Assembly (NCBI GenBank): GCA_035934405.1
Contig: DASYXW010000053.1
Span: forward strand, 59,938-83,937
DNA length: 24,000 nt
Origin: Terriglobia bacterium
Lineage (GTDB): Bacteria > Acidobacteriota > Terriglobia > UBA7540
Direction of reading: 5' to 3'
The position numbers and the translations under genes are program-made. Shown here one piece after another: positions 336 through 24,000 of this stretch. Under the pieces are notes generated by a model. The model was not told where the DNA came from, did no database searches, and was given only the letters and a program-made list of their open reading frames with translations. How positions within the stretch are numbered: the first letter of the stretch is position 1; the number at the start of each line of letters is the position of its first letter.

Positions 336-992
336 CTACCTCGGGATGTAGCTCCCGAGCAAAGGAAGGATCTGGCCGGCGAAATCGGCCGCTCGCGCTT
401 GCCCGCTCGCGATCGCTTCGCCGTCACCGAGCGGGGTGATGACTCGGACGAGCGAGCCGTCCGTGCGGTTGAGCCGAATGGCGTCGGCGACGAGGTAGAA
501 CTTGGCTAGGTATTCGCTGGTCTCGGTGCGGCCGTGCGCCAAATACCAGTAAAGCGCCACCTGACGGTCCTGGCCCTTGGCAATCACGTAACGGTTCACC
601 GGGACATGCTCTCCGTCTGGCGCCTGAATCTGGATCACGTCGGACTCCTCGGGCACCCAGCCCGCGCCCGGCAGACAATGCTTGGGCGAATGAATCAAGT
701 CACCCGTCCGCTGGCTGGGGAAATAGGCGATGTAAAGGTCCAGATAGGCGCCGTCGGGGCGCTGGTAAATCCGCTCCATGAGGTCGCCGCCCGGCATGAG
801 ATCCCGCACCTCCTGCGTGATCGGCACCTGCTCCGCCTCGGTCCAGGCTCCCACTGAAGCCGGAAAAGAGTCCAGCGGCTGGCGCGGCATCTGTCTTTCA
901 GGCTGGGCGTGGGCGCGCAAGAAGGCGGCGGATATTCCAAGCAGGACGAGGACGGGAATGAATCGCGGCCACGATAAGGTTTGTTCTCGCAT
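336..992 (-). CDS. epsI: EpsI family exosortase-associated protein
   Basis: 218 aa with an N-terminal signal/anchor (FIPVLVLLGISAAFLRAHA). Contains the hallmark HSPKHCLPGAGW motif and YWY..G segment of the EpsI family. The start overlaps the stop of the upstream exosortase gene at 992. Confidence 0.85.
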   Translation of the reverse strand: MREQTLSWPRFIPVLVLLGISAAFLRAHAQPERQMPRQPLDSFPASVGAWTEAEQVPITQEVRDLMPGGDLMERIYQRPDGAYLDLYIAYFPSQRTGDLIHSPKHCLPGAGWVPEESDVIQIQAPDGEHVPVNRYVIAKGQDRQVALYWYLAHGRTETSEYLAKFYLVADAIRLNRTDGSLVRVITPLGDGEAIASGQARAADFAGQILPLLGSYIPR

Positions 993-1927
993 CAGGTCCT
1001 CCCCGGCCTTGCCGCACTCGCGGCGCGCCCGCGGCTGAACAGGGTTGCGGCCCAGCGCAGAGCGCCGTGCACCAGGATCAGAAATCCGAGCGACAGCAGG
1101 AAGATCACCCAGCCGGAAAATTCGTGAAAGAACCCTTGCGCCTTGTCGGGGCTCCAGTAGAGGCCGGTCAGGCCCGTCCCCATGATGCGCAGGCCGTTGG
1201 CGGCAACGGCAATCGGCGCCGCGGCTAGAATCAGGGCAATCCGCAGCCAGATCCGGGGCTCAAGGAAATACCCGTAGATGACGGCGAGAGTCCCCAGCGA
1301 CACCAGTGACCGGATGCCGCTGCACGCCGCCACCACTTCGAGCGACATGGTGGCGAGCTGGATCACGTTGCCTTCGCGCAGCACGGGAACGTGAAGGAAA
1401 GTGAGCAGCGACGCGGCAAGGTCCGAAGCCAGGAACTGCAGCGGCAGCGTGACCTGGTTGAGAATCAGTTCTGGGATGGGAATCATCAGAAAGAGCACCG
1501 CCCACGGAAACAGCACGGCGCGAAACCAGCGCCAGCCCTGGTAGTAAATCACCAGGCCGGCCAAAAGAAACACCAGCGACGACCGCGACAGAAAAAGTTC
1601 TGCGCCCAATACTCCCACCACCAGAATCCCCAGCGCGCCGGCAATGATGACGATTCCGAACCAGGAGGGCCTGATGGGAATGGCGCGCAAGAGTTCGCGC
1701 TCGCGCCACAAAACGTAGCCCGAAAAAAGCGGCACCAAGAAGCCGTGAGAAAAGTTTGGGTCGGTCCACCAGTCGAGCACCAGGAGGCGCAGGATACTCG
1801 TGTAGAGGTAAGCGAGCAGGATGACGAGCAACGCCCCCTGGAGCCACAGAATTGTGTGACGGCCGGCTGGCCGCACCACCGTGCCGGCCAGCGTCCCTTC
1901 TGACTGATTGTCCACGTCTGTGCTCAC
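992..1927 (-). CDS. exosortase (Xrt family transpeptidase)
   Basis: 311 aa, polytopic. Has the N-terminal W..DPNFSHGFLVP motif, the catalytic Cys in AACSGIRSL, Arg in ANGLRIMG and His in FHEFSGW. It is coupled to epsI. Confidence 0.85.
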   Translation of the reverse strand: MSTDVDNQSEGTLAGTVVRPAGRHTILWLQGALLVILLAYLYTSILRLLVLDWWTDPNFSHGFLVPLFSGYVLWRERELLRAIPIRPSWFGIVIIAGALGILVVGVLGAELFLSRSSLVFLLAGLVIYYQGWRWFRAVLFPWAVLFLMIPIPELILNQVTLPLQFLASDLAASLLTFLHVPVLREGNVIQLATMSLEVVAACSGIRSLVSLGTLAVIYGYFLEPRIWLRIALILAAAPIAVAANGLRIMGTGLTGLYWSPDKAQGFFHEFSGWVIFLLSLGFLILVHGALRWAATLFSRGRAASAARPGRT

Positions 1928-2023
1928 CTAGCCTGTGTATCCATGATCACCCTTACCACCATACCACTCTCGGCCCGCCGAGAAAAAAGCAATAAAGCCG
2001 ATCCTTCGCCCGCCGCGGCGGAC

Positions 2024-4132
2024 TCAAGATGACACGCTGGGCGTGCGGGCGCGGATCGCCTTCACGCGGCCTTCCACCACCGCGGCTTCCGTCTCGCGGC
2101 GCATCTTGCGCAGCAGCTTGGCGTAGCGCTCGAGACACGGGGCAACCCCCGGATGCTCCGGCCCCAGGGCCCCTTCCAGGACTTGCAGAGCCTGCTTGAA
2201 GTACTGCTCTGCCCGGTCATATTGGCGCTGGGCGTCAGAGAGCACCGCCAGGTTGTTGAGGCTGGTTGCGAGCGATGGATGGCGAGGGCCAAGGTTTTCC
2301 TTCTTCACCTCCAGCGCCCTCTCGAACAGGCGGCCGGCTTCGGCGTACTGGCCTTCGGTGCTGTAGAGGGCCGCAAGATTGTTGAGGCTCTGAGCCACGC
2401 TGATGTGGCCCGGGCCCAGGGCGTTTTCCTGGATTTCGAGCGCCCGCCGCAGCAACCCCTCCGCCTCCGCCTGCCGGCCGGTTGAGCTGTAAATCGCCGC
2501 CAGGCTGTTCAGGCCGGAGGCCAGCACCGGGTGTTCCGGGCCGAGGACGTTCTCCTGAATCGCGAGAGCCCTCTGCCACAGTGTGACGGCGCGGTCGTTT
2601 TCTCCCAACGAGCGCGACAGTTGGGCCAGACGGCTGAGCGTGTGGGCTACGTCGGGGTGATCGGGTCCAAGTGCCCGCTCGAATGTGGCGAGCGCCCGCT
2701 CGGTAAGCTCTCGGGCCTCGGCGTACTTGCGCTGGGCGTCACAAAGCTGGGCAAGGTGGTTCAGATCTGCCGCCACCGCGACGTGTTCCGCCCCCAGATG
2801 TTGCGTATCCATTTCGACCACCCTGCGCTCGAATCCCTCGGCTTCGCCGTATTTCCCCTGGCTGCTCAAGACCTCCGCCAGACGCCCCAGCGTGGCCAAG
2901 ACACCGGAAAGGCCGGCGGGTTGCAGAGACTCCCGAATCGCCAGGGCGCGCTGGTAAACCGGCTCCGCCTCCGCGTACCGGTGTTCGAGCGAGTAGAGCA
3001 AGCCGAGTTTGTCGAGCAGCGGAAGCAGGTCAGGATGCTCTGGCCCGAGCCGCGCTTCATCGCTTTCGAGCGAACGGCGGAGTTGGGCCTCAGCTTCGCC
3101 GTTCCGCCGCGCCCGCCCGTTGTTCTTTTCCGGAGCCGGGCTCTCGGGAGCCTGTGTAAACCTTGAGGCTCCAACCGGAGACGACTCCGTGGCCCGATCC
3201 AACGTCCGATCCGGGGGGCCGTGCGGCGCCAGATGAGCGAGACGATTCAAGGCGGCTTTTACTTCGGCCGCCAGGACGGAAGGATTCGAGCTCTCAGCTT
3301 CTGGGGCTGCCGACGGGTCGTCGAGCGGGGCCAGGGCAGCGTTCGCGCTCGTCTCCGCTCGGGCCGCCATGGCCACGATGTCTTGCGCCCGGCGCAACAC
3401 GGCTCCAGCCTCGGCGTGCCTGCCCTCGCGGCGGTACAGCTCGCCAAGGTTCTCGAGAATCACGGCGACGTCGGGATGTCCAGGTCCGAGGATCTTCTCC
3501 TTGATCGCCAGCGCCTGCTTGAAGAAGGTCTCCGCTTCGGGAAACATCCCGTGGGCATAGGAGACGGTAGCCAGATTGTTGAAGCAGGTGGCGACGTGCG
3601 AGTGCTCGAAGCCAACGGCCTGGATCCACATCGTCAAAGCGCGTGAGAGCGTGTCGAGGGCTCTTGAATAATCGCCTTCCGCCTTGTACAGCAGCGCCAG
3701 GTTGTTGAGGCTGGTGGCGACGGACGGGTGCTCGCGCCCCAACGCATACTCCTCAATCTCCATCGCCCGGCGGAAGAGCGGCTCGGCTTCCGCCCACCGT
3801 CCTTGCGTCGAGCACAGCGCGCCGAGGTTATTGAGGGTCTGCGCCACGCTCGGATCGTCATGCCCGCAGACGCTTTCCCGAAGCTCCAGGGCGTGGCGGA
3901 AGAGGGGTTCGGCGTCCGCAAACTTGCCCTGGGAGCGGAAAGCCTCCCCGAGATCGTTCAAGCTGGCCGCAAAGCGCGTGTCCTCCGGCCCGAACCGCCG
4001 CGCTTCTTCCACCGCCGCCCGGTGATGTTTCTCGGCCTCGGCATAGCGGCCCTCGTTGTAGGCGCGGTTTCCCGCCTCGCTGTGCGCCTGCCACTCGGCT
4101 GGCTGCGGAATGTCGGTCTCGGTCACTCGCAA
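2024..4132 (-). CDS. tetratricopeptide repeat protein (kinesin-light-chain-type TPR_10/TPR_12 arrays)
   Basis: 702 aa. Contains many 42-residue units of the form AEPL..RAL.I.E..LGPEHP.VA..LNNLA.LY...G.Y.EAE. Two arrays are separated by a Pro/Ala/Ser-rich linker. No signal peptide. Confidence 0.85.
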   Translation of the reverse strand: MRVTETDIPQPAEWQAHSEAGNRAYNEGRYAEAEKHHRAAVEEARRFGPEDTRFAASLNDLGEAFRSQGKFADAEPLFRHALELRESVCGHDDPSVAQTLNNLGALCSTQGRWAEAEPLFRRAMEIEEYALGREHPSVATSLNNLALLYKAEGDYSRALDTLSRALTMWIQAVGFEHSHVATCFNNLATVSYAHGMFPEAETFFKQALAIKEKILGPGHPDVAVILENLGELYRREGRHAEAGAVLRRAQDIVAMAARAETSANAALAPLDDPSAAPEAESSNPSVLAAEVKAALNRLAHLAPHGPPDRTLDRATESSPVGASRFTQAPESPAPEKNNGRARRNGEAEAQLRRSLESDEARLGPEHPDLLPLLDKLGLLYSLEHRYAEAEPVYQRALAIRESLQPAGLSGVLATLGRLAEVLSSQGKYGEAEGFERRVVEMDTQHLGAEHVAVAADLNHLAQLCDAQRKYAEARELTERALATFERALGPDHPDVAHTLSRLAQLSRSLGENDRAVTLWQRALAIQENVLGPEHPVLASGLNSLAAIYSSTGRQAEAEGLLRRALEIQENALGPGHISVAQSLNNLAALYSTEGQYAEAGRLFERALEVKKENLGPRHPSLATSLNNLAVLSDAQRQYDRAEQYFKQALQVLEGALGPEHPGVAPCLERYAKLLRKMRRETEAAVVEGRVKAIRARTPSVSS

Positions 4133-4268
4133 CGCTCCAGAGCGAACGCGGGCTCGCTCGCCTCACCCCTACAACCTAATCCCAATTGTCGCAGAGTTCA
4201 ACTTGTTGGCGCCAACCGGCGGCAAGGCCGCTGGAAAACGCGCGGAAAAGCAAAAACGAGGGAAATAG

Positions 4269-4294
4269 CCCTCTCCCGCCGCGGCGGGAGAGGG
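4269..4294. repeat. perfect 26-bp GC-rich palindrome in a divergent intergenic region
   Basis: CCCTCTCCCGCCG/CGGCGGGAGAGGG. Each half is the exact reverse complement of the other. It lies between the TPR gene start (4132) and the tRNA. Confidence 0.6.
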
Positions 4295-4501
4295 TGGCCG
4301 GTAGGCCGGGTGAGGGGTCACGTTTCGAGTGTCGCGATCGGTCGTCCCTGCCTTCTTTCTAACGCGCATTGATGTCACCAGGCACAGCCAGCCTATGATG
4401 GCCAGCTTATTGTAGAAAGCCTGCGAGTTTTCGAGTACAATTTGTGAACGCTGCGGGTGCTGGCCGCGCTGTACTCGACTGGCTTCCTGCTGGCGGACCG
4501 C

Positions 4502-4594
<93 letters not shown>

Positions 4595-7472: not shown

Positions 7473-9575
7473 ATGAGAAATAAAAAGGAGCGACTGAGTC
7501 TCGGAATCATTCTCGCGGTGATGGCGTCGATGGGCAGTCTAGGAAGAAGCCTCCAAGCGCAGACGAACGCGGTGCCTTTCGTCAACCAGCCGCTCGTGCC
7601 GGAAGCGGCGGTGCCGGGCGGAGCCGGGTTCACTCTGACCGTGAACGGCACCGGGTTCGTTGCCGGGTCCATCGTGAACTGGAAAGGCAGCCCGCGCGCC
7701 ACCACCTTTGTTTCGAATTCACAATTGACGGCCGCGATTCTCGCTTCAGACATTTCCGTCCCTGGGACGGCTTCGGTTACGGTGACCAGTCCGGCGCCGG
7801 GCGGCGGAACTTCGAACGGCGCTTATTTCCAGGTTACCTCTCCGGTGTCCCCCGTACTCTTAAACAGCACCGACTACGCGACGGGTCAAAGTCCGTACTC
7901 CGTAGCGGTGGCTGATTTCAACGGCGACGGGAAACCGGACCTCGTGGTGTCAGACGTGACCCCGAGCACGGTCTCGGTGTTCCTCGGAAATGGTGATGGA
8001 ACGTTCCAGCCCCATGTGGATTATCCCGTGGCCTCGCTTCCTGACCAGTTGATCGTGGCTGATTTCAATGGCGACGGTAAGCCCGACCTTGCTGTGACCA
8101 ACGGTGACTGCGCGACGATCCCTTGTGAGCTCGCAGCGGTTTCCATTTTGCTCGGCAACGGCGACGGCACATTTCAAGCTCATAAGGAGTACGCAACCGC
8201 ATACTCGGAATACGCTATCGCCGCCGGCGACTTCAACGGCGACGGGAAGCTCGACCTGGCGGTGACAACGACTTGCGGGAGCGATTCTACTTGCGCGAAC
8301 TTGACGGGCGCTGTCTCCATCTTGCTTGGAAATGGAGACGGAACGTTCGGCGCGCATACGGATTATCCCAGCCCCGCCCTTGAAGTCCCTGGCGCCGTCG
8401 TGGTGGGCGACTTCAACCGCGATGGAAAGCTGGACATGGCAGTAGGGATGTTTTGCCCTACCTGCTTCCCGCCAGAGAATGGATCGGTTTCCGTCTTCCT
8501 CGGAAACGGTGACGGGACTTTCCAGCCCGCAGTCAGCTATGGGCTCAATAGTGGTGGTGGCCTGACAATGGTGGCAGCGGACTTCAACGGCGATGGCATT
8601 CTTGACCTGGTCGTTGGAGACTCCTACGTTTCGCTTCTCCAAGGCAACGGGGACGGCACCTTCCGCGCGCCGGTTGATTACCCCGCCCTCGGTCCGCCCA
8701 GCGCCCTGGCGGTCGGCGATTTCAACGGAGACGGCAAACTCGACGTTGCCGCTGCTGCGTCGAATTTCGGAATCACCGGAGTTTCCCTTCTCTACGGAAA
8801 TGGAAACGGGACTTTTCAAACCCATGTTGATTTTCCCGCCAGCGAATTCGCATCCTCGCTCGCCGCGGGAGACTTCAACGCGGACGGTAACCTCGACCTC
8901 GTGACAGCGAATGAGAATGACAATACCCTCTCGGTGCTCTCGCAAGCTGTGGGGCCGGTGGTGGCGCTGTCGCCAGCCAGTCTCACCTTTCCAACCCAAA
9001 TCGAGGGAACGATGAGCGCGCTTAAGAATTCCACGCTCACCAACACCGGTAACACCAGCCTGAGCATTTCGAGTCTGTCTGCGAGCAGTAGTTTTGGCCA
9101 GAAGAACACCTGCGGTGGCAGCGTGGCGGTGGGCGCGAGTTGTACGATTAGCGTGTCCTTTGATCCGAAGACCAAGGGCACGCTTACCGGAAATGTCAGC
9201 ATTGCCGACAACGCGCCGGGCAGTCCCCAAACTATCTCTCTTACCGGCACCGGCACAGCGGTGAAGCTTTCACCCACCTTCCTTGAATTTGGCAGCGTCA
9301 AGGTGGGCACGACGAGCGCCCCACAGACCATCACGCTGACCAACGTCGCCCCCAATAGCGCCCTGAGTATCGGCCGTATTGCGCTTACGGGCCAAAACCC
9401 CGGCCAATTTGCCCAGACCAACACCTGCGGGTCAAGCGTGCCTCCCGGCGGGAGTTGCACGTTCAGCGTGACGTTTACTCCCACGAAAAAAGGGAGCAAG
9501 CTCGCAGATTTATATATCTACGACAACGGCGGCGCTAGTCCGCAGATCGTGAACCTGAGCGGAGTGGGAACGTAA
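7473..9575 (+). CDS. secreted IPT/TIG + FG-GAP/VCBS repeat + choice-of-anchor-D (HYDIN-like) domain protein
   Basis: GAGGAG SD and a signal peptide. N-terminal [10 protein letters not shown]...SQLTA...VTV segment (IPT-like). About 8 repeats of [10 protein letters not shown]......VSV(L)LGNGDGTF. Two C-terminal LTN.G...L.I......F....CG..V..G.SC...V.F.P modules. Confidence 0.85.
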
Positions 9576-9661
9576 GAAAGCAGTGGCTAGTGGCTAGGGG
9601 TTATCGGTTAGGAGCTCGGTAGGCGACAGGACGGTAGGCAGGAGGCAGGTTCAAACGGCGC
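9576..9661 (+). repeat. conserved G-rich 3' element (copy 1) directly after the stop codon
   Basis: AAGAAAGCAGTGGCTAGTGGCTAGGGGTTA...GGTAGGCGACAGGACGGTAGGCAGGAGGCAGGTTCAAACGGCGC. It aligns with 12353-12449. Confidence 0.7.
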
Positions 9662-9692
9662 GATAGCCTATGATTCGGCGGCTAACAACCCG

Positions 9693-17948: not shown

Positions 17949-19310
17949 CACAGCATCTTTCGTGGCGTTTACGATAGCCGTGCTCGCGAAGGATGGCTCC
18001 TTTTTCAGGCGTAGGCGAGTCGCCGCCGCGGTCTGAGTAGTCACTGGCGCTGATTTAATGAGTGCTTCGGCGATCAATTCGACCAGATAGGTGTTTACAC
18101 CGTTGCCTAGTGCTTTGAAAGCCTGTGTTGGAACCGCTGGCAAATGCTTAAGTTCGTCCATACACTGCAGTCGAGCGCACTCCCGAACCGTCATATAGCG
18201 CCTTTCCCACGCTATGATCGGCACCTGCGTAGTCGTCATCGCGATTAGCGACGGCGCCGTCGTTGGTCGCTTCACGCGCACGCCGGACGCGCGGAATTGA
18301 ATGACGTATTTCCAGATATTCCGCTCCTCACCCTTGCAATTCCATTCGAATTTTTGAAGGCTGGGAGGGAACTGTACGATCTCCGGCAACCACCGGTCGA
18401 TCCATTCTTTGTTCTCGCAATAAAGGTTACGGTTCTGCCTTATGAACGTCCGCTTCCATGTTGGAAACCGCTTCTCTGGCGTGCGCGCGTGCGATGGAAG
18501 CGCGCCTAGGACCTTGTATCGAGCATAGCACTTGAGAGACTCGCCATGGGATCCGCGATATTTGAAGAGATCCCGGCGCGGCGTTGCCCACGGAGTCGTA
18601 TCCTCGTACGGATAGGTCGCGCCGAACTCCATCGACCAGATCGGAAACGAAGGCAACTCGATGTTGGCTGGGTATTTCTCGATGAACTTCTGCCATACGT
18701 CCAAACACTTCAGAACCGCAGGCGTCAGCCTTCTGGCATCCTTTGGATTATGGTCAAGCGCTGAGCTCAGATTTGGCTCCGCACCCTCCGGCGGCACCGG
18801 CCACCTGAAATTGCCCAAACCGTCACGGCTCCCCACGATGAACATTCGCTCGCGAATCTGCGGGATGCCAAATTGATGAGGCGACAGGTACGCGAATGCG
18901 ACCGCGTAACCCGCATTTTGGAATTGCCGCTCAAGATCCTCCCATGTCTCACCGCCGTTGTGCCGCTTGAGATTCGGGACGTTTTCCAAAAGGATGAAGC
19001 GCGGTTTACGCGCTCGCGCTATCCGTAGCATATGACCTAGAAGGTTGCCCCACTTCGGACACTCTACCCCCTGCTGCTCGCCAGCCTTCGAGAACGGTTG
19101 GCAGGGCGAGCCCGCACACAAAATGTCGTGATCCGGTACCTCGCAGATCGGCACCGAAAGAATGTCGCCCGCCGGGCGTATCCCGTAGTTTGCCTCGTAC
19201 AGTTCTCGCAGAGTCGTGTCAATCTCACTCGCGAAGACACAATTGTTGCCCAGGCGCTTCAGCGCAAGGTGAAATCCTCCGAGCCCAGCAAACAAGTCTA
19301 TGAAGCGCAT
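17931..19310 (-). CDS. dcm: DNA (cytosine-5)-methyltransferase
   Basis: 459 aa. Motif I DLFAGLGGF, motif IV GSPCQPFS, motif VI LLENVPNL, motif VIII QIRERMFIVG, motif X ALGNGVN. A long variable region lies between VIII and X. Confidence 0.9.
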   Translation of the reverse strand: MRFIDLFAGLGGFHLALKRLGNNCVFASEIDTTLRELYEANYGIRPAGDILSVPICEVPDHDILCAGSPCQPFSKAGEQQGVECPKWGNLLGHMLRIARARKPRFILLENVPNLKRHNGGETWEDLERQFQNAGYAVAFAYLSPHQFGIPQIRERMFIVGSRDGLGNFRWPVPPEGAEPNLSSALDHNPKDARRLTPAVLKCLDVWQKFIEKYPANIELPSFPIWSMEFGATYPYEDTTPWATPRRDLFKYRGSHGESLKCYARYKVLGALPSHARTPEKRFPTWKRTFIRQNRNLYCENKEWIDRWLPEIVQFPPSLQKFEWNCKGEERNIWKYVIQFRASGVRVKRPTTAPSLIAMTTTQVPIIAWERRYMTVRECARLQCMDELKHLPAVPTQAFKALGNGVNTYLVELIAEALIKSAPVTTQTAAATRLRLKKEPSFASTAIVNATKDAVSLVEW

Positions 19311-19762
19311 CGCCTGCTGTTCCGCCGACGCAACAGGACGTTCTCGACTTGGGTCGCCGCACGCTCCGGGTCCGCTTTAATGTCACCTTCCCAAAGCCGC
19401 ATCACGCACCAGTGCTGTTTTTTTAGCAGGCGGGTCGTCTGGCGGTCCCGCAGCATATTCGCTCGAATCTTCCTCCGCCAATAGCCCGCGTTCGCCCCCT
19501 TTTGGAGGTGCTTCGAGAGCCGATGCCAACGCCGGCCATGCCAGAAATCCCCGTCACAAAAAACAGCCACCCGCCCCCTCGCGAAAACAACGTCCGGCTT
19601 GCCGGGAAGCCCGGCCAGATTCTTGCGAAATCGCAGTCCGCGCCGCCACAGCGCGCTTCGAAGAAGCCTCTCGTGCATGGTGTCGGCGCTGCGGTTCATC
19701 CGCTTTGCCAACGATGCGGCCTGCGAGGTCGCCTTCAGTCCGATGTATGAAGGGGTCTTCAT
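19298..19762 (-). CDS. vsr: very short patch repair endonuclease
   Basis: LPGKPDVVF...AVFCDGDFWHG...W..K signature. The ORF track begins at GTG 19780. I prefer ATG 19762, which is preceded by AAGGGA. The 3' end overlaps the dcm start by 13 nt. Confidence 0.85.
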   Translation of the reverse strand: MKTPSYIGLKATSQAASLAKRMNRSADTMHERLLRSALWRRGLRFRKNLAGLPGKPDVVFARGRVAVFCDGDFWHGRRWHRLSKHLQKGANAGYWRRKIRANMLRDRQTTRLLKKQHWCVMRLWEGDIKADPERAATQVENVLLRRRNSRRCAS

Positions 19763-19865
19763 CACGGAATCCCTTTTCACAGCCTGACCGGGGGTCAGTA
19801 TACGCCTGGGGAGTAGCGCTCGTCGAGATGGCAGATACTTGACCCTGCTGGCACCGAGCGCCGAT

Positions 19866-20120
19866 CGCGCCCTGAACTACCTCGCGGTGCGCTATCACGC
19901 CATCTATGCCAACGCCGCCGAAGCCTTTGCGCGCAATGCGTCGCTGACCGGCGTGTATGTGGTTCCGTCGTCTTTGAGCGGCACGCGCAAGGTGGCCGAT
20001 GTGATTTTCTCTTACACCAACCGCTCGACCGATGTGGTGGAGAAGTTTTTTACGCGCGTGGACGTGACCGAGGAGTTTCCATTCCTGGTCACGAAGCTGT
20101 CGCCGTACTACGACCGTTAA
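19866..20120 (+). pseudogene. 5'-truncated paralogous copy of the last 84 codons of the PatG-DUF-like gene (22541-23470)
   Basis: 255 nt align without gaps to 23216-23470 with 13 differences by my count. The encoded 84 aa are identical. An in-frame stop lies at 19815-19817, and weaker similarity extends back to about 19820. Confidence 0.7.
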
Positions 20121-20148
20121 ACTACGGAAGTGGCAGGAGGTCATTCCA

Positions 20149-20343
20149 ATGCGTTTAGCCGAATTCACCGCCGACGCTTCGCTCTCTGAGGGCAGCGAGG
20201 AGTATGCCATGAGGGCGTCACCTGCCTCGACGGCCGGGGCTACGGGTTTGGTGTTGCCGGCCATCGAACATTGCTGGGGTAGGTTATGCGTATGGTGCGC
20301 CTGGAATCATGGTCGTGACTGCGGGATCAAATGGAAGTTTTAA
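20149..20343 (+). CDS. precursor-like small peptide (64 aa), third member of the family at 23505/23746
   Basis: GGAGG SD 8 nt upstream. MRLAEFTADASLSEGSEEY shares F6, A8, D/E9, L12 and Y19 with the other two peptides. LVLPA hinge, then the tail IEHCWGRLCVWCAWNHGRDCGIKWKF (4 Cys, 4 Trp). Confidence 0.55.
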   Translation: MRLAEFTADASLSEGSEEYAMRASPASTAGATGLVLPAIEHCWGRLCVWCAWNHGRDCGIKWKF

Positions 20344-20356
20344 GGTCGCGGGTGGC

Positions 20357-20384
20357 GCAGACATGCGCCTTTCAGCATGTCTGC
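20357..20384 (+). terminator. perfect 10-bp stem / 8-nt loop hairpin after the peptide ORF
   Basis: GCAGACATGC-gcctttca-GCATGTCTGC, 14 nt after the TAA. No U-tract follows. Confidence 0.3.
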
Positions 20385-20396
20385 GGTTGAAACCTC

Positions 20397-20494
20397 TGAT
20401 TATCGGCGCCACGGCCTCGAAGTGCAGCGCGCAGTCGTTTGTGTTCGACGGCGTGAATGCTTATGCCGTCTCCGCCGGCCTCGCCAACATGTAG
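20397..20494 (+). pseudogene. remnant of the 3' end of a tail-fibre-like paralog
   Basis: Colinear and ungapped with 15513-15610. LIIGATASKCSAQSFVFDGVNAYAVSAGLANM* matches MIIGATASKCSAQPFIFDGISAYALSPGLSNQ*. No upstream gene body is present. Confidence 0.65.
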
Positions 20495-20527
20495 GGATCA
20501 GGGGTCGGGGGTCAGGGGGCCAGGGGT
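20495..20527 (+). repeat. G-tract run directly after the remnant stop codon
   Basis: GGATCAGGGGTCGGGGGTCAGGGGGCCAGGGGT, with five G3+ runs. Confidence 0.65.
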
Positions 20528-20645
20528 TAACCCAAACCCTTGGTAGTGAGTGTTTGCCTTTGTAGCGGCGAGTTTATCTCGGTCGCCGCGGCGACCGGCA
20601 TAAAGCCGCCTCTACGCGAAACTGACCCACCACCAAACCCTGCGG

Positions 20646-21011
20646 TTGAGAGACGCTTGCTACGGAGCTGACGGCGGTGCTAGCCTTCATGCGCCAGTGC
20701 ATTTTCTCACCGATTTCGAGGGCCGACCCATTCGCCTCACCGACGAGCGCTGGCGCCATATTTGTGAACACCCAGAAATGGGTGACATGCGGGATTCCTT
20801 GGATGAAACCCTGCGACTGCCGGATGTTGTTGTCGAGTCCGTCGGCGATCCAGACGCGTGGCTTTACTACCGCTTCTACCATCGAACGCTTGTCGGAGGA
20901 AAGTACCTGGGTGTAGTGGTAAAATTCCCGAAGGCTGATGCGTTTGTGGTGACTGCTTATGTCACCGACCGGGTGAAGAAAGGCAACGTCCTATGGCCGA
21001 GAGAATCGTGA
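20646..21011 (+). CDS. small toxin-like protein (DUF4258-like by memory)
   Basis: IRLTDERWRHICEHPEM...LPDVVVES..DP...YYRFY...GKYLGVVVKF...AFVVTAYVT pattern. The start is uncertain (TTG 20646 or GTG 20697). It overlaps the next gene by 19 nt. Confidence 0.5.
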   Translation: MRDACYGADGGASLHAPVHFLTDFEGRPIRLTDERWRHICEHPEMGDMRDSLDETLRLPDVVVESVGDPDAWLYYRFYHRTLVGGKYLGVVVKFPKADAFVVTAYVTDRVKKGNVLWPRES

Positions 21012-21196
21012 AGATGTGGTTCGATCCCGAAGCCGACTTTCTCGAAGTCACCTTCGAGCAAAAGCCGGGATATTTCCGCGAGACCGAGAACGACCTCGTG
21101 ATGGAAAAGGTTGACACCCAGGGGAACGTGATCGGATTTTCCGTGCTGCGCGTCAGCTCCTTGAAAAAGACTCCGCTCGAAGTTGCGCTCCGGTAA
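20993..21196 (+). CDS. DUF2283-family small protein (antitoxin-like partner)
   Basis: 67 aa. WFDPEADFLEVTF....G........V.EKVDTQGNVIGFSVL matches the YD.EAD.LYI......vD.d..G.vvGiEiL pattern of DUF2283. Confidence 0.6.
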   Translation: MAERIVKMWFDPEADFLEVTFEQKPGYFRETENDLVMEKVDTQGNVIGFSVLRVSSLKKTPLEVALR

Positions 21197-21354
21197 AAGC
21201 CTCGGCGTGGGGCTGTGCGGCGCCGGGCCGTGTCGAGTTGACGATAAATGGACGTGTATCTCTGTTGACTCTTGACTTCCTTCGCCGGCAGAGTTAGCTT
21301 TCCCGACGCAGTTAATAATTCCCTGGGCAAGAATCCGCTGGCGCAGGTGCAACT

Positions 21355-22251
21355 GTGAGCCCTCTGGATCTGGTCCACCTCTCACCCTTGATGGAGCGCA
21401 CGCAGGGTCGCGCTGAGCTCATCGTCGCTTTGATTGATGGGCCTGTGGCGCTCGACCATCCTGACCTCGCCGGCGCGACTGTCCGTCATGTTGGCGGCGA
21501 ACTTCCTGGAAAACTGAAAGGAGCCTGTAGCCTGGCCCAGAGCGTGGCGTGCACGCACGGCACGTTTGTGGCCGGCGTACTTTTTGCGCGGCGGGGTTCC
21601 GAGGCGCCGGCCATTTGTCCGGCGTGCACGCTGTTGCTGCGGCCAATCTTCGCGGAAACGGCGAGCAAGAACGGAGACATGCCGAGCGCGACTCCGGTAG
21701 AACTGGCCCAAGCCATTATCGAAAGCGTTGATGCGGGCGCGCGCGTCATCAACTTGAGTTCCGCCCTGGTTCAACCTTCACTGAAAGGTGAAAGAGAGAT
21801 GGAGGAGGCGCTCAACCACGCAGCGCAGCGCGGCGCCATCACGGTGGCGGCGGCGGGCAATCAGGGAACGGTGGGAAGTTCCATCATCACGCGCCATTCC
21901 TGGGTGATTCCGGTGGCCGCCTGCAATCCTCAGGGCAAACCGCTCCGCGAATCGAATCTCGGAAGCTCGATCGGCCGGCGGGGACTGAGCGCGCCGGGGG
22001 AGAACGTTACCAGCCTCGGAACCAACGGCAAGCCGCAGACTTTTGGCGGCACCAGCGCGGCGGCGCCTTTTGTGACCGGCGCGATTGCGCTCCTCTGGTC
22101 GGAGTTTCCAGGCGCCAGCGCAGGCGAGATTAAACTGGCCGTGACGCAAGCCGGTATACCACGGCGGCCCACCGTCGCTCCGCCCGTGCTCGACGCCTGG
22201 GCCGCTTATCAGGTGATGGCCTCCGCCCATAACGGGAGAAGAGTGGCATGA
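21355..22251 (+). CDS. S8 family subtilisin-like serine protease, PatA/PatG-like branch
   Basis: 298 aa, GTG start. Catalytic elements appear in canonical order: Asp in LIVALIDGPVALDHPDL, His in ACTHGTFVAGVL, Asn in AAAGNQG, Ser in GGTSAAAPFVTGAIALLW. No signal peptide. Confidence 0.85.
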   Translation: MSPLDLVHLSPLMERTQGRAELIVALIDGPVALDHPDLAGATVRHVGGELPGKLKGACSLAQSVACTHGTFVAGVLFARRGSEAPAICPACTLLLRPIFAETASKNGDMPSATPVELAQAIIESVDAGARVINLSSALVQPSLKGEREMEEALNHAAQRGAITVAAAGNQGTVGSSIITRHSWVIPVAACNPQGKPLRESNLGSSIGRRGLSAPGENVTSLGTNGKPQTFGGTSAAAPFVTGAIALLWSEFPGASAGEIKLAVTQAGIPRRPTVAPPVLDAWAAYQVMASAHNGRRVA

Positions 22252-22454
22252 GCAGAAAAGAAAGCAGCAAGAATCACGGCGGCGAACCCGAGCATCAGCC
22301 GCACCGCGTTCGTCTTCCGGGGTTCCTCATCGAGGAGGAAATCGGACTCGGAGATACCGTCAAGAAAATAACCTACGCCATGGGATTCAAGCCGTGCGGC
22401 GGATGTGAGAAGCGCGCCGCGGCGCTCAACCGGTGGATGAGTTTTACGCGATAG
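22248..22454 (+). CDS. small CxxC protein (68 aa)
   Basis: ATGA overlap with the protease stop. The GLGDTVKKITYAMGFKPCGGCEKRAAALNRW motif is one I recall as a widespread small domain of unknown function. It also carries RLPGFLIEEE. Confidence 0.6.
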   Translation: MSRKESSKNHGGEPEHQPHRVRLPGFLIEEEIGLGDTVKKITYAMGFKPCGGCEKRAAALNRWMSFTR

Positions 22455-22540
22455 CCTGGCTGTAGCGCCGCTCTATGAGCGGCGAAGGACGCCGGTCGCA
22501 GACCGGCGTTACAAATCAATCCTTTAGGAGGCGAAATCAC

Positions 22541-23470
22541 ATGGAGCAACAGGAAGCGAACGAGCAATTGGCAACTGCATCTGTCAGCGGGAATGACGCC
22601 GCGGCGATAGCGGCCTCTGCCGCGAGGCCGGCGGCATCGCTGGCGCCGCAGGCGTGTCCGACTTGCGGCACGGCGCCGGCAGCGAATGGCGGAGCCGCCG
22701 CGCCCAGCTACGTCTATGCCATCGGCAGAATTGAACCCCGCTTCCCGCGGCCGTCGGTGGAAAAGGAATTCGCCCAGGCCGTGGGGCGGGACAAGACTTC
22801 CGGCCTTACCGACCGCCAGGCGCTGCATGCGGTGCTTTCGAAGCCCGAAAATCGTTATCTCGTGCGGCACTTGTGCTGGGTGATGACGATTGAGGGCCTC
22901 GAAACCTACATCCTGGTCCCGCGTGACCCGGCGGATTTCAATCTTCTGGTCGAAGCGCTCCGTCCTACGCCGCAACCCTGGGACCTGGATTGCGTCATCG
23001 GGTTTCGCGGACCCATCGCCGGGCCGGAAGTGTGCAACGGGCTGATGGTGCCGATTGTGGCGTTTGACCAAATCTATTCCTTCGACCGCGATTCGCTGAT
23101 CAAAGCCATTCCCAAACCCGAGAAGACCACGGCCAAGGACTTTGCTCCGGCGGCGGAGGAACTGTTCGACCGCATCATGCAGATGACGGATAACGCCGGC
23201 GCGACCGATGAGAACCGCGCTTTGAATTACCTGGCGGTGCGCTATCACGCCATCTATGCCAACGCCGCCGAAGCCTTTGCGCGCAATGCCTCGCTGACCG
23301 GCGTGTATGTGGTCCCGTCGTCTTTGAGCGGCACGCGCAAGGTGGCCGATGTGATTTTCTCTTACACCAACCGCTCGACCGATGTGGTGGAGAAGTTCTT
23401 TACGCGCGTCGATGTGACCGAGGAGTTTCCGTTCCTGGTGACGAAGCTGTCGCCGTACTACGACCGCTGA
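22541..23470 (+). CDS. free-standing protein resembling the PatA/PatG C-terminal domain of unknown function
   Basis: The ORF track starts at 22475. I prefer ATG 22541, which has AGGAGG at 22526-22531. It contains CPTCG followed by SYVYAIGRIEPRFPRPSVEKEFAQAVG, which resembles from memory the YVYALG..GYDFG.EARRD opening of the PatG C-terminal domain. Confidence 0.7.
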   Translation: MEQQEANEQLATASVSGNDAAAIAASAARPAASLAPQACPTCGTAPAANGGAAAPSYVYAIGRIEPRFPRPSVEKEFAQAVGRDKTSGLTDRQALHAVLSKPENRYLVRHLCWVMTIEGLETYILVPRDPADFNLLVEALRPTPQPWDLDCVIGFRGPIAGPEVCNGLMVPIVAFDQIYSFDRDSLIKAIPKPEKTTAKDFAPAAEELFDRIMQMTDNAGATDENRALNYLAVRYHAIYANAAEAFARNASLTGVYVVPSSLSGTRKVADVIFSYTNRSTDVVEKFFTRVDVTEEFPFLVTKLSPYYDR

Positions 23471-23504
23471 AATTCGAGGAATATGGGATCAAAGGAGGTC
23501 ACAC

Positions 23505-23705
23505 ATGAGTCTCCCAGGGTTTGTTGCTGATGTTTCGCTAGCTGGCTCGCGGAGTCCTTATCAGGCGGGCGCAGAGCATGACAATTTGGCTGCCGGCGCA
23601 AAGGTTGTGCCCCAACTTTTCTATATCTCCGTAGGCCCAGGCCGCTGCGCTGTGGGCGAGTATGCCGGTGGCGCGTGCTGGTTCTACGGGATCGTGAGCT
23701 GCTAG
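23505..23705 (+). CDS. precursor-like small peptide (66 aa)
   Basis: AAGGAGG SD. MSLPGFVADVSLAGSRSPY leader-like motif and VVPQ hinge. Tail LFYISVGPGRCAVGEYAGGACWFYGIVSC (3 Cys). Confidence 0.6.
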   Translation: MSLPGFVADVSLAGSRSPYQAGAEHDNLAAGAKVVPQLFYISVGPGRCAVGEYAGGACWFYGIVSC

Positions 23706-23745
23706 ATGATTTTGAAAGCACACATCAGACGTAAAGGAGAAAAAG

Positions 23746-24000
23746 ATGAGCACACCAGGATTCACCGCCGAGGCTGCGCTCGGCAAAATGAGGGAAAGCT
23801 ACGCTCTCACCTCGGGGATCGCAGCAGAGACCGGGAGCGTTCTGCCCCAACAATGGGGGATATTACAGAACTTACAGGTCTGCCGAACCGTTTGTTTTTC
23901 AGTTCCTGGTTCCCTCGGCCCTAAGGTCGTTTGTGACACGCTCTGTCCGCCTGGGGTCGGGCATTCTCACAGAGGCGCCCAGAGCTACACGGCTTACTGA
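23746..24000 (+). CDS. precursor-like small peptide (84 aa), complete; the stop is the last codon of the window
   Basis: AAGGAG SD. MSTPGFTAEAALGKMRESY leader-like motif and VLPQ hinge. Tail QWGILQNLQVCRTVCFSVPGSLGPKVVCDTLCPPGVGHSHRGAQSYTAY (4 Cys). Confidence 0.6.
   Translation: MSTPGFTAEAALGKMRESYALTSGIAAETGSVLPQQWGILQNLQVCRTVCFSVPGSLGPKVVCDTLCPPGVGHSHRGAQSYTAY

What the first reader, a model, noticed from the sequence alone, without database searches (positions are those of the whole stretch)
19820..20343. Second, decapitated copy of the locus: 255 nt differ at 13 sites yet encode the identical 84 aa, followed by a different peptide
19866-20120 aligns ungapped with 23216-23470. I count 13 nucleotide differences: 12 are third-position or otherwise synonymous changes in sense codons, and one is TAA versus TGA at the stop. 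The 84 encoded residues are identical.

That pattern cannot come from a recent dead duplicate drifting neutrally. It indicates two paralogous loci that diverged under purifying selection (or a copy acquired from a relative), one of which later lost its 5' portion. Similarity becomes weak upstream of about 19866 and disappears by about 19820, which is 40-60 bp from the vsr start.

Downstream, both copies keep an AGGAGGTCA SD and a small ORF, but the peptide tails are unrelated. This fits enzyme conservation with peptide diversification.
Basis: seen in the sequence. Interest (0 to 1): 0.65.

Follow-up and report, generated by a model that had tools for sequence, protein, structure and literature searches.

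The report
Dead gene end with orphan peptide
The second copy is real: it is the recently cut-off tail of a peptide-maturation helper gene, still followed by its own small peptide gene, left beside a mobile anti-phage island, and similar leftover tails mark peptide-gene cassettes in many related soil bacteria.

Summary
19866-20120 aligns without gaps to 23216-23470 with 12 synonymous differences plus TAA/TGA, and the 84 residues are identical (dS 0.215, dN 0; P = 7e-8 under neutrality). Similarity stops abruptly at 19866.

The gene is a stand-alone PatG-type domain of unknown function (DUF; Pfam PatG_D + PatG_C). With a PatA-like S8 protease and a 68-aa CxxC protein it forms a three-gene module, found in 351 places in reference genomes, that precedes arrays of Cys-rich precursor peptides.

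The fragment is a pseudogene tail that was part of a working gene until recently. Its 5' part now gives way to a low-GC mobile defence island (PD-Lambda-5-like pair, Dcm, Vsr).

The downstream copy groups with an ortholog from another metagenome (21:4:2 sites). This favours juxtaposed versions from two lineages over an in-place duplication.

In 18 of 80 related loci, 25 further 3' remnants lie downstream of the DUF gene, and 16 of them directly precede peptide genes. They diverged mostly under purifying selection. The layout resembles Rhs/CDI orphan cassettes.

Interest is moderate.

The parts
19866..20120 (+). 3' fragment (last 84 codons plus TAA) of a second PatG-DUF-type gene. It is a pseudogene remnant.
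   Evidence: It is 95% identical without gaps to 23216-23470, with 12 synonymous, 0 non-synonymous and 1 stop-codon difference. It matches Pfam PatG_C profile positions 29-115 of 115 at 8e-26. No similarity exists upstream.
20134..20343 (+). SD AGGAGGTCA (20134-20142) and orphan precursor-peptide gene pep' (20149-20343, 64 aa, 4 Cys in the core).
   Evidence: It carries the leader motif M..(P/A)(G/E)F(T)A(D/E).SL shared with 112 peptides of the family. It is the only one with Ala instead of Pro at position 4. No homologue was found in two large searches.
20356..20385 (+). Perfect 11-bp hairpin (CGCAGACATGC, 8-nt loop, GCATGTCTGCG) after pep'. The junction with the next remnant follows at 20396|20397.
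   Evidence: Read directly from the sequence. Homology to the tail-fibre-like gene starts sharply at 20397.
20397..20526 (+). Displaced 3' end (33 codons plus stop) of a tail-fibre-like gene, followed by a (YYAGGGG)n heptad run.
   Evidence: It forms a repeat pair with 15513-15632. It is 92.8% identical to the 3' end of the ortholog in L089, against 73% to the window's own copy. Site patterns are 21:4:2.
15513..15632 (+). Upstream member of the repeat pair: the present 3' end of the intact tail-fibre-like gene (14030-15610) plus a heptad run.
15883..19768 (.). Mobile defence-island core. It holds a PD-Lambda-5_A-like ParB-type protein (15907-17013, +), a 311-aa partner (17013-17948, +), a Dcm methyltransferase (17931-19310, -) and Vsr (19298-19762, -).
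   Evidence: PADLOC and Pfam hits. GC is 0.52-0.58 against 0.60-0.67 in the flanks. It is 80.8% identical over 3889 nt to L093, where the flanks are unrelated. The gene pair lies in yet another context in L094/L095.
21355..22251 (+). S8 serine protease of the PatA (leader-removing cyanobactin protease) type.
   Evidence: Pfam Peptidase_S8. The best solved-structure hits are PagA 4H6W (1e-29) and PatA 4H6V (2e-28).
22248..22454 (+). 68-aa conserved protein with RLPGFL and KPCGGC motifs.
   Evidence: Present in 73 of 80 related loci. Consensus from 72 sequences.
22541..23470 (+). Intact stand-alone PatG-DUF-type gene (309 aa).
   Evidence: Pfam PatG_D 5.9e-33 and PatG_C 1.4e-33, both above the gathering scores. 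351 relatives in reference genomes; the best 80 share 65-88% aa identity with it.
23505..24000 (+). Two precursor-peptide genes of the intact locus: pep1 (23505-23705) and pep2 (23746-24000).
   Evidence: ORFs with the leader motif and Cys-rich cores.

Best explanation
The segment 19866-20120 is the non-functional tail of a second copy of a stand-alone PatG-type 'domain of unknown function' (DUF) gene. It is still followed by its own ribosome-binding site and precursor-peptide gene (20149-20343).

In the intact locus (21355-24000) this gene works with a PatA-like S8 protease and a 68-aa CxxC protein. Together they would handle ribosomal precursor peptides that have a conserved leader (M..PGFTAE.SL ... 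V(L/V)PQ) and hypervariable Cys-rich cores. The inferred steps are leader recognition and leader removal by the protease. This function is inferred from homology only.

The truncated copy was part of a working gene for essentially all of its divergence from the intact one, which explains why only synonymous changes are seen. It lost its first ~225 codons recently; a mobile, low-GC defence island now stands in their place.

The fragment, its peptide and the island lie inside a 4.9-kb block (15513-20396). The block is bounded by two diverged copies of the 3' end of a tail-fibre-like gene. The downstream copy is the allele seen in another lineage. The most likely history is therefore recombination between related lineages, with one homologous end in the tail-fibre-like gene and one illegitimate joint at 20396|20397. 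That event would place a decapitated version and an intact version of the same chromosomal interval side by side. Which side was imported cannot be told.

Across the family, similar 3' remnants lie downstream of the DUF gene, mostly in front of peptide genes. I infer that the conserved 3' end of this gene is the usual crossover point through which new peptide cassettes arrive and older ones are pushed aside.
For: Shown directly:
- 12 synonymous, 0 non-synonymous differences over 84 codons.
- The remnant covers only positions 29-115 of the PatG_C profile and has no detectable 5' homology.
- Zero changes at 187.8 non-synonymous sites gives a 95% upper bound of 0.016 substitutions per site of neutral time since truncation, against about 0.11 per lineage in total.
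- The island is compositionally distinct. It consists of defence genes. It is found with unrelated flanks in L093 and in L094/L095.
- A second repeat pair has sharp ends at 15513/20397 and 15632/20518.
- The downstream copy is 92.8% identical to L089 but 73% to the upstream copy, with site patterns 21:4:2.
- Independent unitigs confirm both copies and the left junction.

Family pattern:
- 25 further partial copies occur in 18 of 80 related loci. All are C-terminal fragments, all on the same strand and downstream of the full gene.
- 17 of the 26 partial copies, counting the window's, are followed within 19-175 nt by a leader-peptide ORF.
- Pooled pN/pS against the resident gene is 0.30, with pS 0.48 and pN 0.144 (binomial P = 3e-30 against neutrality). 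My rough calculation gives about 0.34 for pN under duplication followed by neutral decay. The functional baseline is pN 0.115 and ratio 0.17.
- For 11 of 21 remnants the resident gene ranks only 17th to 65th of 78 in similarity.
- The near-identical strains L018 and L021 differ by a whole cassette.
Against: - The remnant's closest relative among 78 genes is the resident copy (95%). This also fits an in-genome paralog.
- The block contains no integrase.
- The direction of import is undetermined.
- Identity between the window's tail-fibre-like gene and L089 shows no clean breakpoint.
- The window's remnant lies upstream of the intact module. All remnants in relatives lie downstream. The family mechanism therefore does not transfer directly.
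- Zero non-synonymous changes is low even for the family: 3.6-9 would be expected for 12 synonymous changes. Residual selection on the fragment therefore cannot be fully excluded.
- The joint at 20396|20397 is seen only in this assembly.
- The function of the module is untested.
Confidence: 0.6

Rival explanations
1. In-genome paralogs. The interval from the 3' end of the tail-fibre-like gene through the peptide gene was duplicated in tandem in this lineage. Both modules stayed functional for a long time. The defence island then replaced the 5' part of the upstream copy.
For: The order of parts is exactly that of a tandem duplication with a peptide|tail-fibre joint. The remnant is nearest to the resident copy. 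Several MAGs carry 2-3 loci of this family, and L019 has two full copies 5 kb apart. dS of the DUF tail (0.215) and divergence of the other repeat are of the same order.
Against: The downstream tail-fibre remnant would have been non-functional from birth. Yet it is 92.8% identical to a functional ortholog in another metagenome and only 73% identical to its supposed parent, with site patterns 21:4:2. Divergence jumps from 5% to unalignable exactly at the stop codon. No relative shows a tandem pair of modules in direct orientation.
Confidence: 0.25
2. The fragment is kept by selection. It could be a small PatG_C-only protein (ORF 19839-20120, TTG start, 93 aa) or a cis element needed to express the peptide gene behind it.
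For: The ORF is open. Zero non-synonymous changes is fewer than the 3.6-9 expected from family pairs with a similar number of synonymous changes. Every remnant in the family retains the extreme 3' end next to the peptide genes.
Against: The fragment lacks the first 28 positions of the PatG_C profile and all of PatG_D. No SD precedes the TTG. Remnants in relatives decay, with internal stops in L027, L046, L047, L060 and L070 and rising non-synonymous counts with distance. The candidate hairpin GTGACC..GGTCAC shows no covariation; its third-position pairs are paired in only 44-77% of 78 genes. No + strand promoter-like site was found and there is no Rfam match.
Confidence: 0.07
3. Assembly chimera. 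Two co-occurring strains, one with the island and a decapitated module and one with the intact module, were stitched into one contig.
For: The sequence comes from a metagenome-assembled genome (one search names a Terriglobia MAG protein identical to the 311-aa protein encoded at 17013-17948). The block has a two-lineage mosaic character. The interval 19914-20585 was not recovered in independent unitigs.
Against: A mis-join needs a shared repeat at the joint. At 20396|20397 a unique hairpin region meets the middle of a gene. The only shared stretch nearby is 38 nt with a mismatch, which would join tail-fibre 5' to tail-fibre 3', not peptide to tail-fibre. Unitigs from the sequencing runs behave as expected for two real copies.
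Confidence: 0.05

Closest known systems
PatA/PatG proteins of cyanobactin pathways (S8 protease fused to the C-terminal 'cyanobactin DUF', Pfam PatG_D + PatG_C; DUF structure described in PMC4259220)
   Same: The protease is most similar to the N-terminal cyanobactin proteases PagA and PatA. The 309-aa protein matches both DUF halves far above the Pfam thresholds. Precursor genes with a conserved leader and a variable core lie next to them.
   Different: Protease and DUF are separate genes with a conserved 68-aa CxxC protein between them. No heterocyclase, macrocyclase, oxidase or prenyltransferase is conserved nearby in 81 loci. Cores are long and Cys-rich. Hosts are mostly Acidobacteriota, not cyanobacteria. 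The score against the NCBIfam PatA/PatG model is far below its cut-off: 31 and 108 bits against 421.
Orphan toxin-immunity cassettes downstream of rhs and cdiA genes (PMC3967940)
   Same: Fragments of the conserved part of a 'main' gene, without start signals, precede variable modules. They form arrays on the same strand downstream of the main gene. The fragments look like displaced ends of formerly full-length genes, as that paper describes for rhs orphans. Here, remnant sequences behave like foreign alleles.
   Different: The variable part here is a separate gene with its own SD, so an orphan peptide could be made without fusing to the main gene. No immunity gene is present. The window's remnant lies upstream of the intact module, beside a defence island, rather than in the downstream array.
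Homology-facilitated illegitimate recombination, and gene-3'-end duplication at insertion sites of genomic islands (my own knowledge of the transformation and island literature; not looked up here)
   Same: The inserted block is flanked by two diverged copies of a gene's 3' end, with the gene kept intact and the old end displaced. There is a 38-nt nearly identical core at the left of both copies. The cargo is a mobile defence island.
   Different: The block contains no integrase and no tRNA target. The cargo includes a fragment homologous to a gene only 2.7 kb beyond the insertion point, which ordinary island integration does not explain.
Multi-precursor RiPP (ribosomally made, post-translationally modified peptide) loci, such as prochlorosins, where one enzyme serves many diverse precursors (my own knowledge)
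   Same: There is one conserved processing set and several precursor genes with a shared leader and unrelated cores.
   Different: I know of no report that precursor genes in such loci are separated by remnants of the neighbouring processing gene. Two full-text searches found none.

Membership tests
PatG-type cyanobactin DUF (Pfam PF18047 PatG_D + PF18065 PatG_C) | Significant match to both profile HMMs above the gathering score. | tested here: met
   Intact gene: PatG_D 114.1 bits (cut-off 27) and PatG_C 115.8 bits (cut-off 25.9). Remnant ORF: PatG_C 90.7 bits, profile positions 29-115 only.
PatG-type cyanobactin DUF | The fold of the solved PatG DUF. | not tested
   A single-sequence search of PDB sequences gave no relevant hit. 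No structure prediction was run.
Cyanobactin biosynthetic gene cluster | PatA-type leader protease. | tested here: met
   The best solved-structure matches are PagA and PatA. The NCBIfam PatA/PatG model matches only as a partial hit below its cut-off.
Cyanobactin biosynthetic gene cluster | PatG-type macrocyclase, and usually a YcaO heterocyclase or prenyltransferase, nearby. | tested here: not met
   Clustering of all ORFs of at least 70 aa within 7 kb in 81 loci gives only the S8, DUF and peptide families as recurrent. None is present in the window.
Cyanobactin biosynthetic gene cluster | PatE-like precursor with protease recognition sequences flanking short cores. | tested here: not met
   The precursors have a different leader (M..PGFTAE.SL) and single long Cys-rich cores. 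They have no Pfam or NCBIfam match.
Rhs/CDI-style orphan cassette array | Start-less fragments of the conserved main gene directly upstream of variable modules. | tested here: met
   There are 26 C-terminal fragments, and 17 are followed within 19-175 nt by a peptide ORF.
Rhs/CDI-style orphan cassette array | Orphans lie downstream of the main gene, in the same orientation. | tested here: inconclusive
   This holds for all 25 remnants in relatives. It does not hold for the window's remnant, which lies 3.1 kb upstream of the intact gene.
Rhs/CDI-style orphan cassette array | The variable module is a toxin with a cognate immunity gene. | tested here: not met
   No second conserved small gene accompanies the peptides. 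Peptide activity is unknown.
Rhs/CDI-style orphan cassette array | An orphan in one strain is the main-gene-linked module in another. | not tested
   pep' has no homologue. No systematic comparison of peptide cores across loci was made.
Site-specific integrative island | Flanking direct repeats (att) at a gene's 3' end. | tested here: met
   15513-15632 and 20397-20518, with a 38-nt core identical at 37 of 38 positions.
Site-specific integrative island | An integrase or recombinase encoded in the element. | tested here: not met
   The four genes are PD-Lambda-5_A-like, a 311-aa unknown protein, Dcm and Vsr.

The most novel reading that the evidence does not exclude
The conserved 3' end of the stand-alone PatG-DUF gene acts as the standing recombination anchor of a cassette-exchange system for secreted Cys-rich peptides. 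New [gene tail + peptide] cassettes from other lineages are recombined in. Older ones are displaced but kept as an expressible reserve, so each locus carries an ordered fossil record of past peptides. This would parallel Rhs/CDI orphan arrays, but in a RiPP-like module that is widespread in Acidobacteriota and several other phyla. The window would show the same exchange acting on the whole interval.
Probability: 0.3. Interest if true: 0.7.

Novelty: new variant of a known kind. Interest (0 to 1): 0.48.

Why it matters
The fragment by itself is a pseudogene left by a recent rearrangement next to a mobile defence island, which is a common kind of event. Its context has more value.

First, it points to an uncharacterised three-gene module: a PatA-like protease, a CxxC protein and a stand-alone cyanobactin DUF. 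The module is highly conserved (65-88% identity among the best 80 relatives, which span several phyla) and serves hypervariable Cys-rich peptides. The cyanobactin DUF has had no known role since its structure was solved (PMC4259220). A system in which it is a separate, strongly constrained gene next to its presumed substrates is a good place to test one.

Second, the remnants give a sequence-level record of how precursor-peptide cassettes are gained and displaced. That record could be used to date and order peptide turnover in soil bacteria.

Tried and rejected
- RNA element in the retained 3' end. The apparent hairpin GTGACCGAGGA..TCCTGGTCAC follows from the V-T...V-T codons. Its third-position pairs are paired in only 44-77% of 78 genes, with no compensatory pattern. 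Rfam finds only a tRNA in the window.
- Promoter or terminator scan of 19600-24000. Nothing on the + strand exceeds chance. One promoter-like site on the minus strand (19826-19797) fits vsr.
- Weak homology upstream of 19866. None was found.
- Homologues of pep'. None in a JGI metagenome scan, in 5.8 billion protein clusters or as an exact record.
- Exact-protein look-ups returned nothing for the DUF gene in both start variants, pep1, pep2, the tail-fibre-like protein and the ORF across the right junction. I therefore could not see beyond position 24000 or confirm 20396|20397.
- Flanking genes of the window (tail-fibre-like, toxin-antitoxin-like pair, island genes). None is present in the 80 related loci, so there is no shared synteny to exploit.
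- Unassigned spacers 15633-15882, 19769-19865, 20344-20396 and 20527-20645. No similarity to anything fetched.
- Literature. Full-text searches for the leader motif, the Pfam accessions and for cyanobactin-like systems in Acidobacteria found no description of this family.
- Simple tandem duplication followed by neutral decay as the general source of remnants. Rejected for the pooled set: pN is 0.144, where my rough calculation expects about 0.34.

Full report
**1. Checking the observation**

I compared the two segments codon by codon. Segment 19866-20120 and segment 23216-23470 align without gaps at an offset of 3350. They differ at 12 sense codons, all synonymously, and at the stop codon (TAA versus TGA). 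The 84 residues are identical.

Nei-Gojobori counting gives 64.2 synonymous and 187.8 non-synonymous sites, Sd = 12, Nd = 0 and dS = 0.215. The chance that 12 random changes are all synonymous is 7e-8.

Both copies are followed by AGGAGGTCA and a small ORF.

Similarity ends abruptly at 19865|19866. The nine codons before it are all different. A gapped local alignment of the upstream 96 nt scores no better than shuffled sequence.

**2. Is it an assembly artefact?**

Exact-protein look-ups returned short Logan unitigs from sequencing runs SRR12347814-18 that match the window at 100%.
- One set covers up to 7931-19913 and spans the vsr|remnant junction; these come from four runs.
- The other set covers up to 20586-23263.

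The unitigs end at 19913 and 23263, exactly 30 nt after the last copy-specific bases (19883 and 23233). They end at the start of a 56-nt stretch that the two copies share. A k=31 de Bruijn graph breaks there only if both contexts are present in the reads.

The right junction at 20396|20397 was not recovered independently. However, no repeat at that point could cause a mis-join.

**3. What the gene is**

The intact 309-aa protein (22541-23470) matches both halves of the cyanobactin 'domain of unknown function' (DUF) far above the gathering scores. These are Pfam PatG_D and PatG_C, each at about 1e-33. The truncated ORF matches PatG_C positions 29-115 only.

Upstream lies an S8 protease (21355-22251). 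Its best solved relatives are the leader-removing cyanobactin proteases PagA and PatA, at 1e-29 and 2e-28. Between the two sits a 68-aa CxxC protein (22248-22454).

Downstream are two peptide genes. The peptide behind the remnant has the same build. That build is a conserved leader, M-x-(M/I/L)-P-G-F-T-A-E-x-S-L, then later V(L/V)PQ, followed by an unrelated Cys-rich core.

**4. How widespread the module is**

A scan of one genome per species found 351 relatives, and I kept 80 loci. Most are from Acidobacteriota. Others come from Nitrolancea, Nitrosospira, Brocadia, cyanobacteria and Verrucomicrobiota. Amino-acid identity to the window's protein is 65-88%.

Only the S8 gene, the 68-aa gene, the DUF gene and the peptide arrays recur around them. 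No heterocyclase, macrocyclase or transporter is conserved.

The locus is therefore a split PatA-like module with its own class of precursors, not a cyanobactin cluster. I found no description of it in the literature.

**5. What surrounds the remnant**

To the left is a four-gene island:
- a PD-Lambda-5_A-like ParB-type protein;
- its 311-aa partner;
- a Dcm methyltransferase;
- Vsr.

Its GC content is 0.52-0.58, against 0.60-0.67 on either side. The same four genes, 80.8% identical over window 15883-19768, sit between unrelated genes in a JGI contig (L093). The first two genes lie in yet another defence and mobile region in L094/L095. None of those copies carries the DUF fragment. The island is mobile and unrelated to the peptide locus, and it now stands where the 5' part of the second DUF gene should be.

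**6. A second repeat pair**

It consists of the last 98 nt of a tail-fibre-like gene (14030-15610) plus a G-rich heptad run. It occurs at 15513-15632 and again at 20397-20518, just after the orphan peptide and a perfect hairpin (20356-20385).

The order along the window is therefore:
1. tail-fibre 3' end;
2. island;
3. DUF tail;
4. pep';
5. tail-fibre 3' end again;
6. toxin-antitoxin-like pair;
7. S8 gene;
8. 68-aa gene;
9. DUF gene;
10. pep1;
11. pep2.

This is the layout of a staggered duplication of the whole interval, with the island replacing the interior of the first copy.

**7. Where the two versions come from**

A JGI contig (L089) carries an ortholog of the tail-fibre-like gene. Over the 98 coding columns:
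- the downstream remnant (20397-20494) is 92.8% identical to L089;
- it is only 73% identical to the window's own functional 3' end;
- the functional end alone differs at 21 sites, the remnant alone at 4 and L089 alone at 2.

A fragment created by an in-place duplication should be closest to its parent, and it should have decayed. It is instead a nearly intact allele of another lineage. This favours recombination between related lineages, with one crossover in the tail-fibre-like gene and an illegitimate joint at 20396|20397.

I cannot tell which side was imported: the island-bearing block or the intact module. There is no clean identity breakpoint inside the gene and no integrase in the block. 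An old in-genome duplication therefore remains a live rival.

**8. Timing**

With no change at 187.8 non-synonymous sites, the fragment can have evolved neutrally for at most about 0.016 substitutions per site (95% bound). That is a small part of the roughly 0.11 per lineage separating the copies. Family pairs with a similar number of synonymous changes show 3.6-9 non-synonymous changes per 12 synonymous ones. The two copies were therefore unusually well conserved until the cut.

The orphan peptide shows one possible sign of relaxation. It is the only one of 112 leader peptides with Ala instead of Pro at position 4. The motif search that collected these peptides admitted only Pro, Ala or Glu at that position.

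**9. The family-wide pattern**

A sensitive tblastn search of the 80 loci found 25 further partial copies of the DUF gene in 18 loci.
- All are C-terminal fragments. They start between residues 252 and 292 and run to, or within a few residues of, the C-terminus; one stops at residue 289.
- All lie on the same strand, downstream of the full gene.
- Counting the window's copy, 17 of the 26 partial copies are followed within 19-175 nt, mostly 19-44 nt, by a leader-peptide ORF.
- L018 has five or six copies of the gene tail, depending on the method, at 150-630-nt spacing.

Pooled over the 21 remnants that could be compared, the divergence from the resident gene is pS 0.48 and pN 0.144, a ratio of 0.30 (P = 3e-30 against neutrality). 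Functional genes compared with each other give pS 0.68, pN 0.115 and a ratio of 0.17. My rough calculation for duplication followed by neutral decay predicts a pN of about 0.34.

For 11 of the 21 remnants the resident gene ranks only 17th to 65th of 78 in similarity. More distal remnants are more decayed, some with internal stops. Two strains whose loci are 93.9% identical across the shared 2.5 kb, with nearly identical DUF gene tails, differ by a whole cassette.

The remnants are therefore mostly former ends of functional genes from other alleles, left behind when a new gene tail plus peptide was recombined in.

The closest described parallel is the orphan toxin-immunity cassettes behind rhs and cdiA genes (PMC3967940). 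Here, however, the variable part is a separate gene with its own ribosome-binding site, and there is no immunity partner.

**10. Alternatives examined**

- A selected RNA hairpin in the retained tail is not supported.
- There is no Rfam match and no + strand promoter-like site.
- A functional 93-aa mini-protein is unlikely, because the domain is incomplete, there is no SD and remnants decay elsewhere.

**11. Verdict**

The object is a recently decapitated copy of a PatG-DUF-type gene with an orphan precursor gene. It lies at the edge of a block that also holds a mobile defence island, and it most likely belongs to a version of the interval that evolved in a related lineage.

It is an unusual instance (upstream position, long, undecayed) of a family-wide habit of leaving gene-tail remnants in front of peptide cassettes. 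That habit, and the module itself, appear to be undescribed, which gives the finding moderate interest.

Noticed in passing
window 9589-9600, 12367-12392, 15614-15632, 20493-20526: A heptad repeat (YYAGGGG)n, telomere-like and prone to G-quadruplex formation, sits at or within about 15 nt of the stop codons of four + strand genes or gene remnants (two FG-GAP proteins, the tail-fibre-like gene and its displaced 3' end). There are 10 matches against 0.56 expected. Its function is unknown.
   Followed up: partly
window 22248-22454 (and 72 related loci): The 68-aa protein between the protease and DUF genes has a motif RLPGFL..EE.EIGLGD that is at least 90% conserved. Its PGF core resembles the precursor leader motif M..PGFTAE. 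It is followed by KPCGGCEKRAAALNRW. It may be a leader mimic or a leader-binding partner.
   Followed up: partly
L018:2070-4330 versus L021:4400-5650: Two bog Acidobacteriaceae MAGs with nearly identical DUF gene tails, and 93.9% nt identity over the shared 2.5 kb, differ in two ways. One whole peptide cassette between two remnants is present in only one of them. In the first peptide, only the centre of the core is replaced while both flanks are kept.
   Followed up: partly
window 15907-17948; L093:8871-10912; L094:8895-10936: The PD-Lambda-5_A-like ParB-type protein and its 311-aa partner form a conserved pair that travels in different defence islands. It occurs with Dcm and Vsr here and in L093. 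In L094/L095 it occurs with Z1, HATPase and NOV_C proteins and an integrase. The 311-aa partner has no Pfam or PADLOC match.
   Followed up: partly
window 20562-20615: An imperfect 29-nt-arm palindrome lies between the displaced tail-fibre 3' end and the toxin-antitoxin-like pair (20646-21196). Independent unitigs break here.
   Followed up: no
L019:5314-6075 (-) and 10094-10924 (+); L005:6692-7775 and 10082-10923: L019 has two full DUF genes in inverted orientation 5 kb apart, each with its own peptides. In L005 the S8 gene and the DUF gene are separated by about 2.3 kb instead of about 0.3 kb, which suggests an insertion inside the module.
   Followed up: no
window 336-4594: The left end of the window holds an exosortase (EpsH) gene with a DUF3485 partner, a large TPR protein and a tRNA-Ser(GCT) at 4502-4594. 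Two paralogous FG-GAP/ASH-domain proteins follow at 7473-9575 and 10253-12352. They are 73-77% identical at the DNA level over the compared 300-nt stretches.
   Followed up: no
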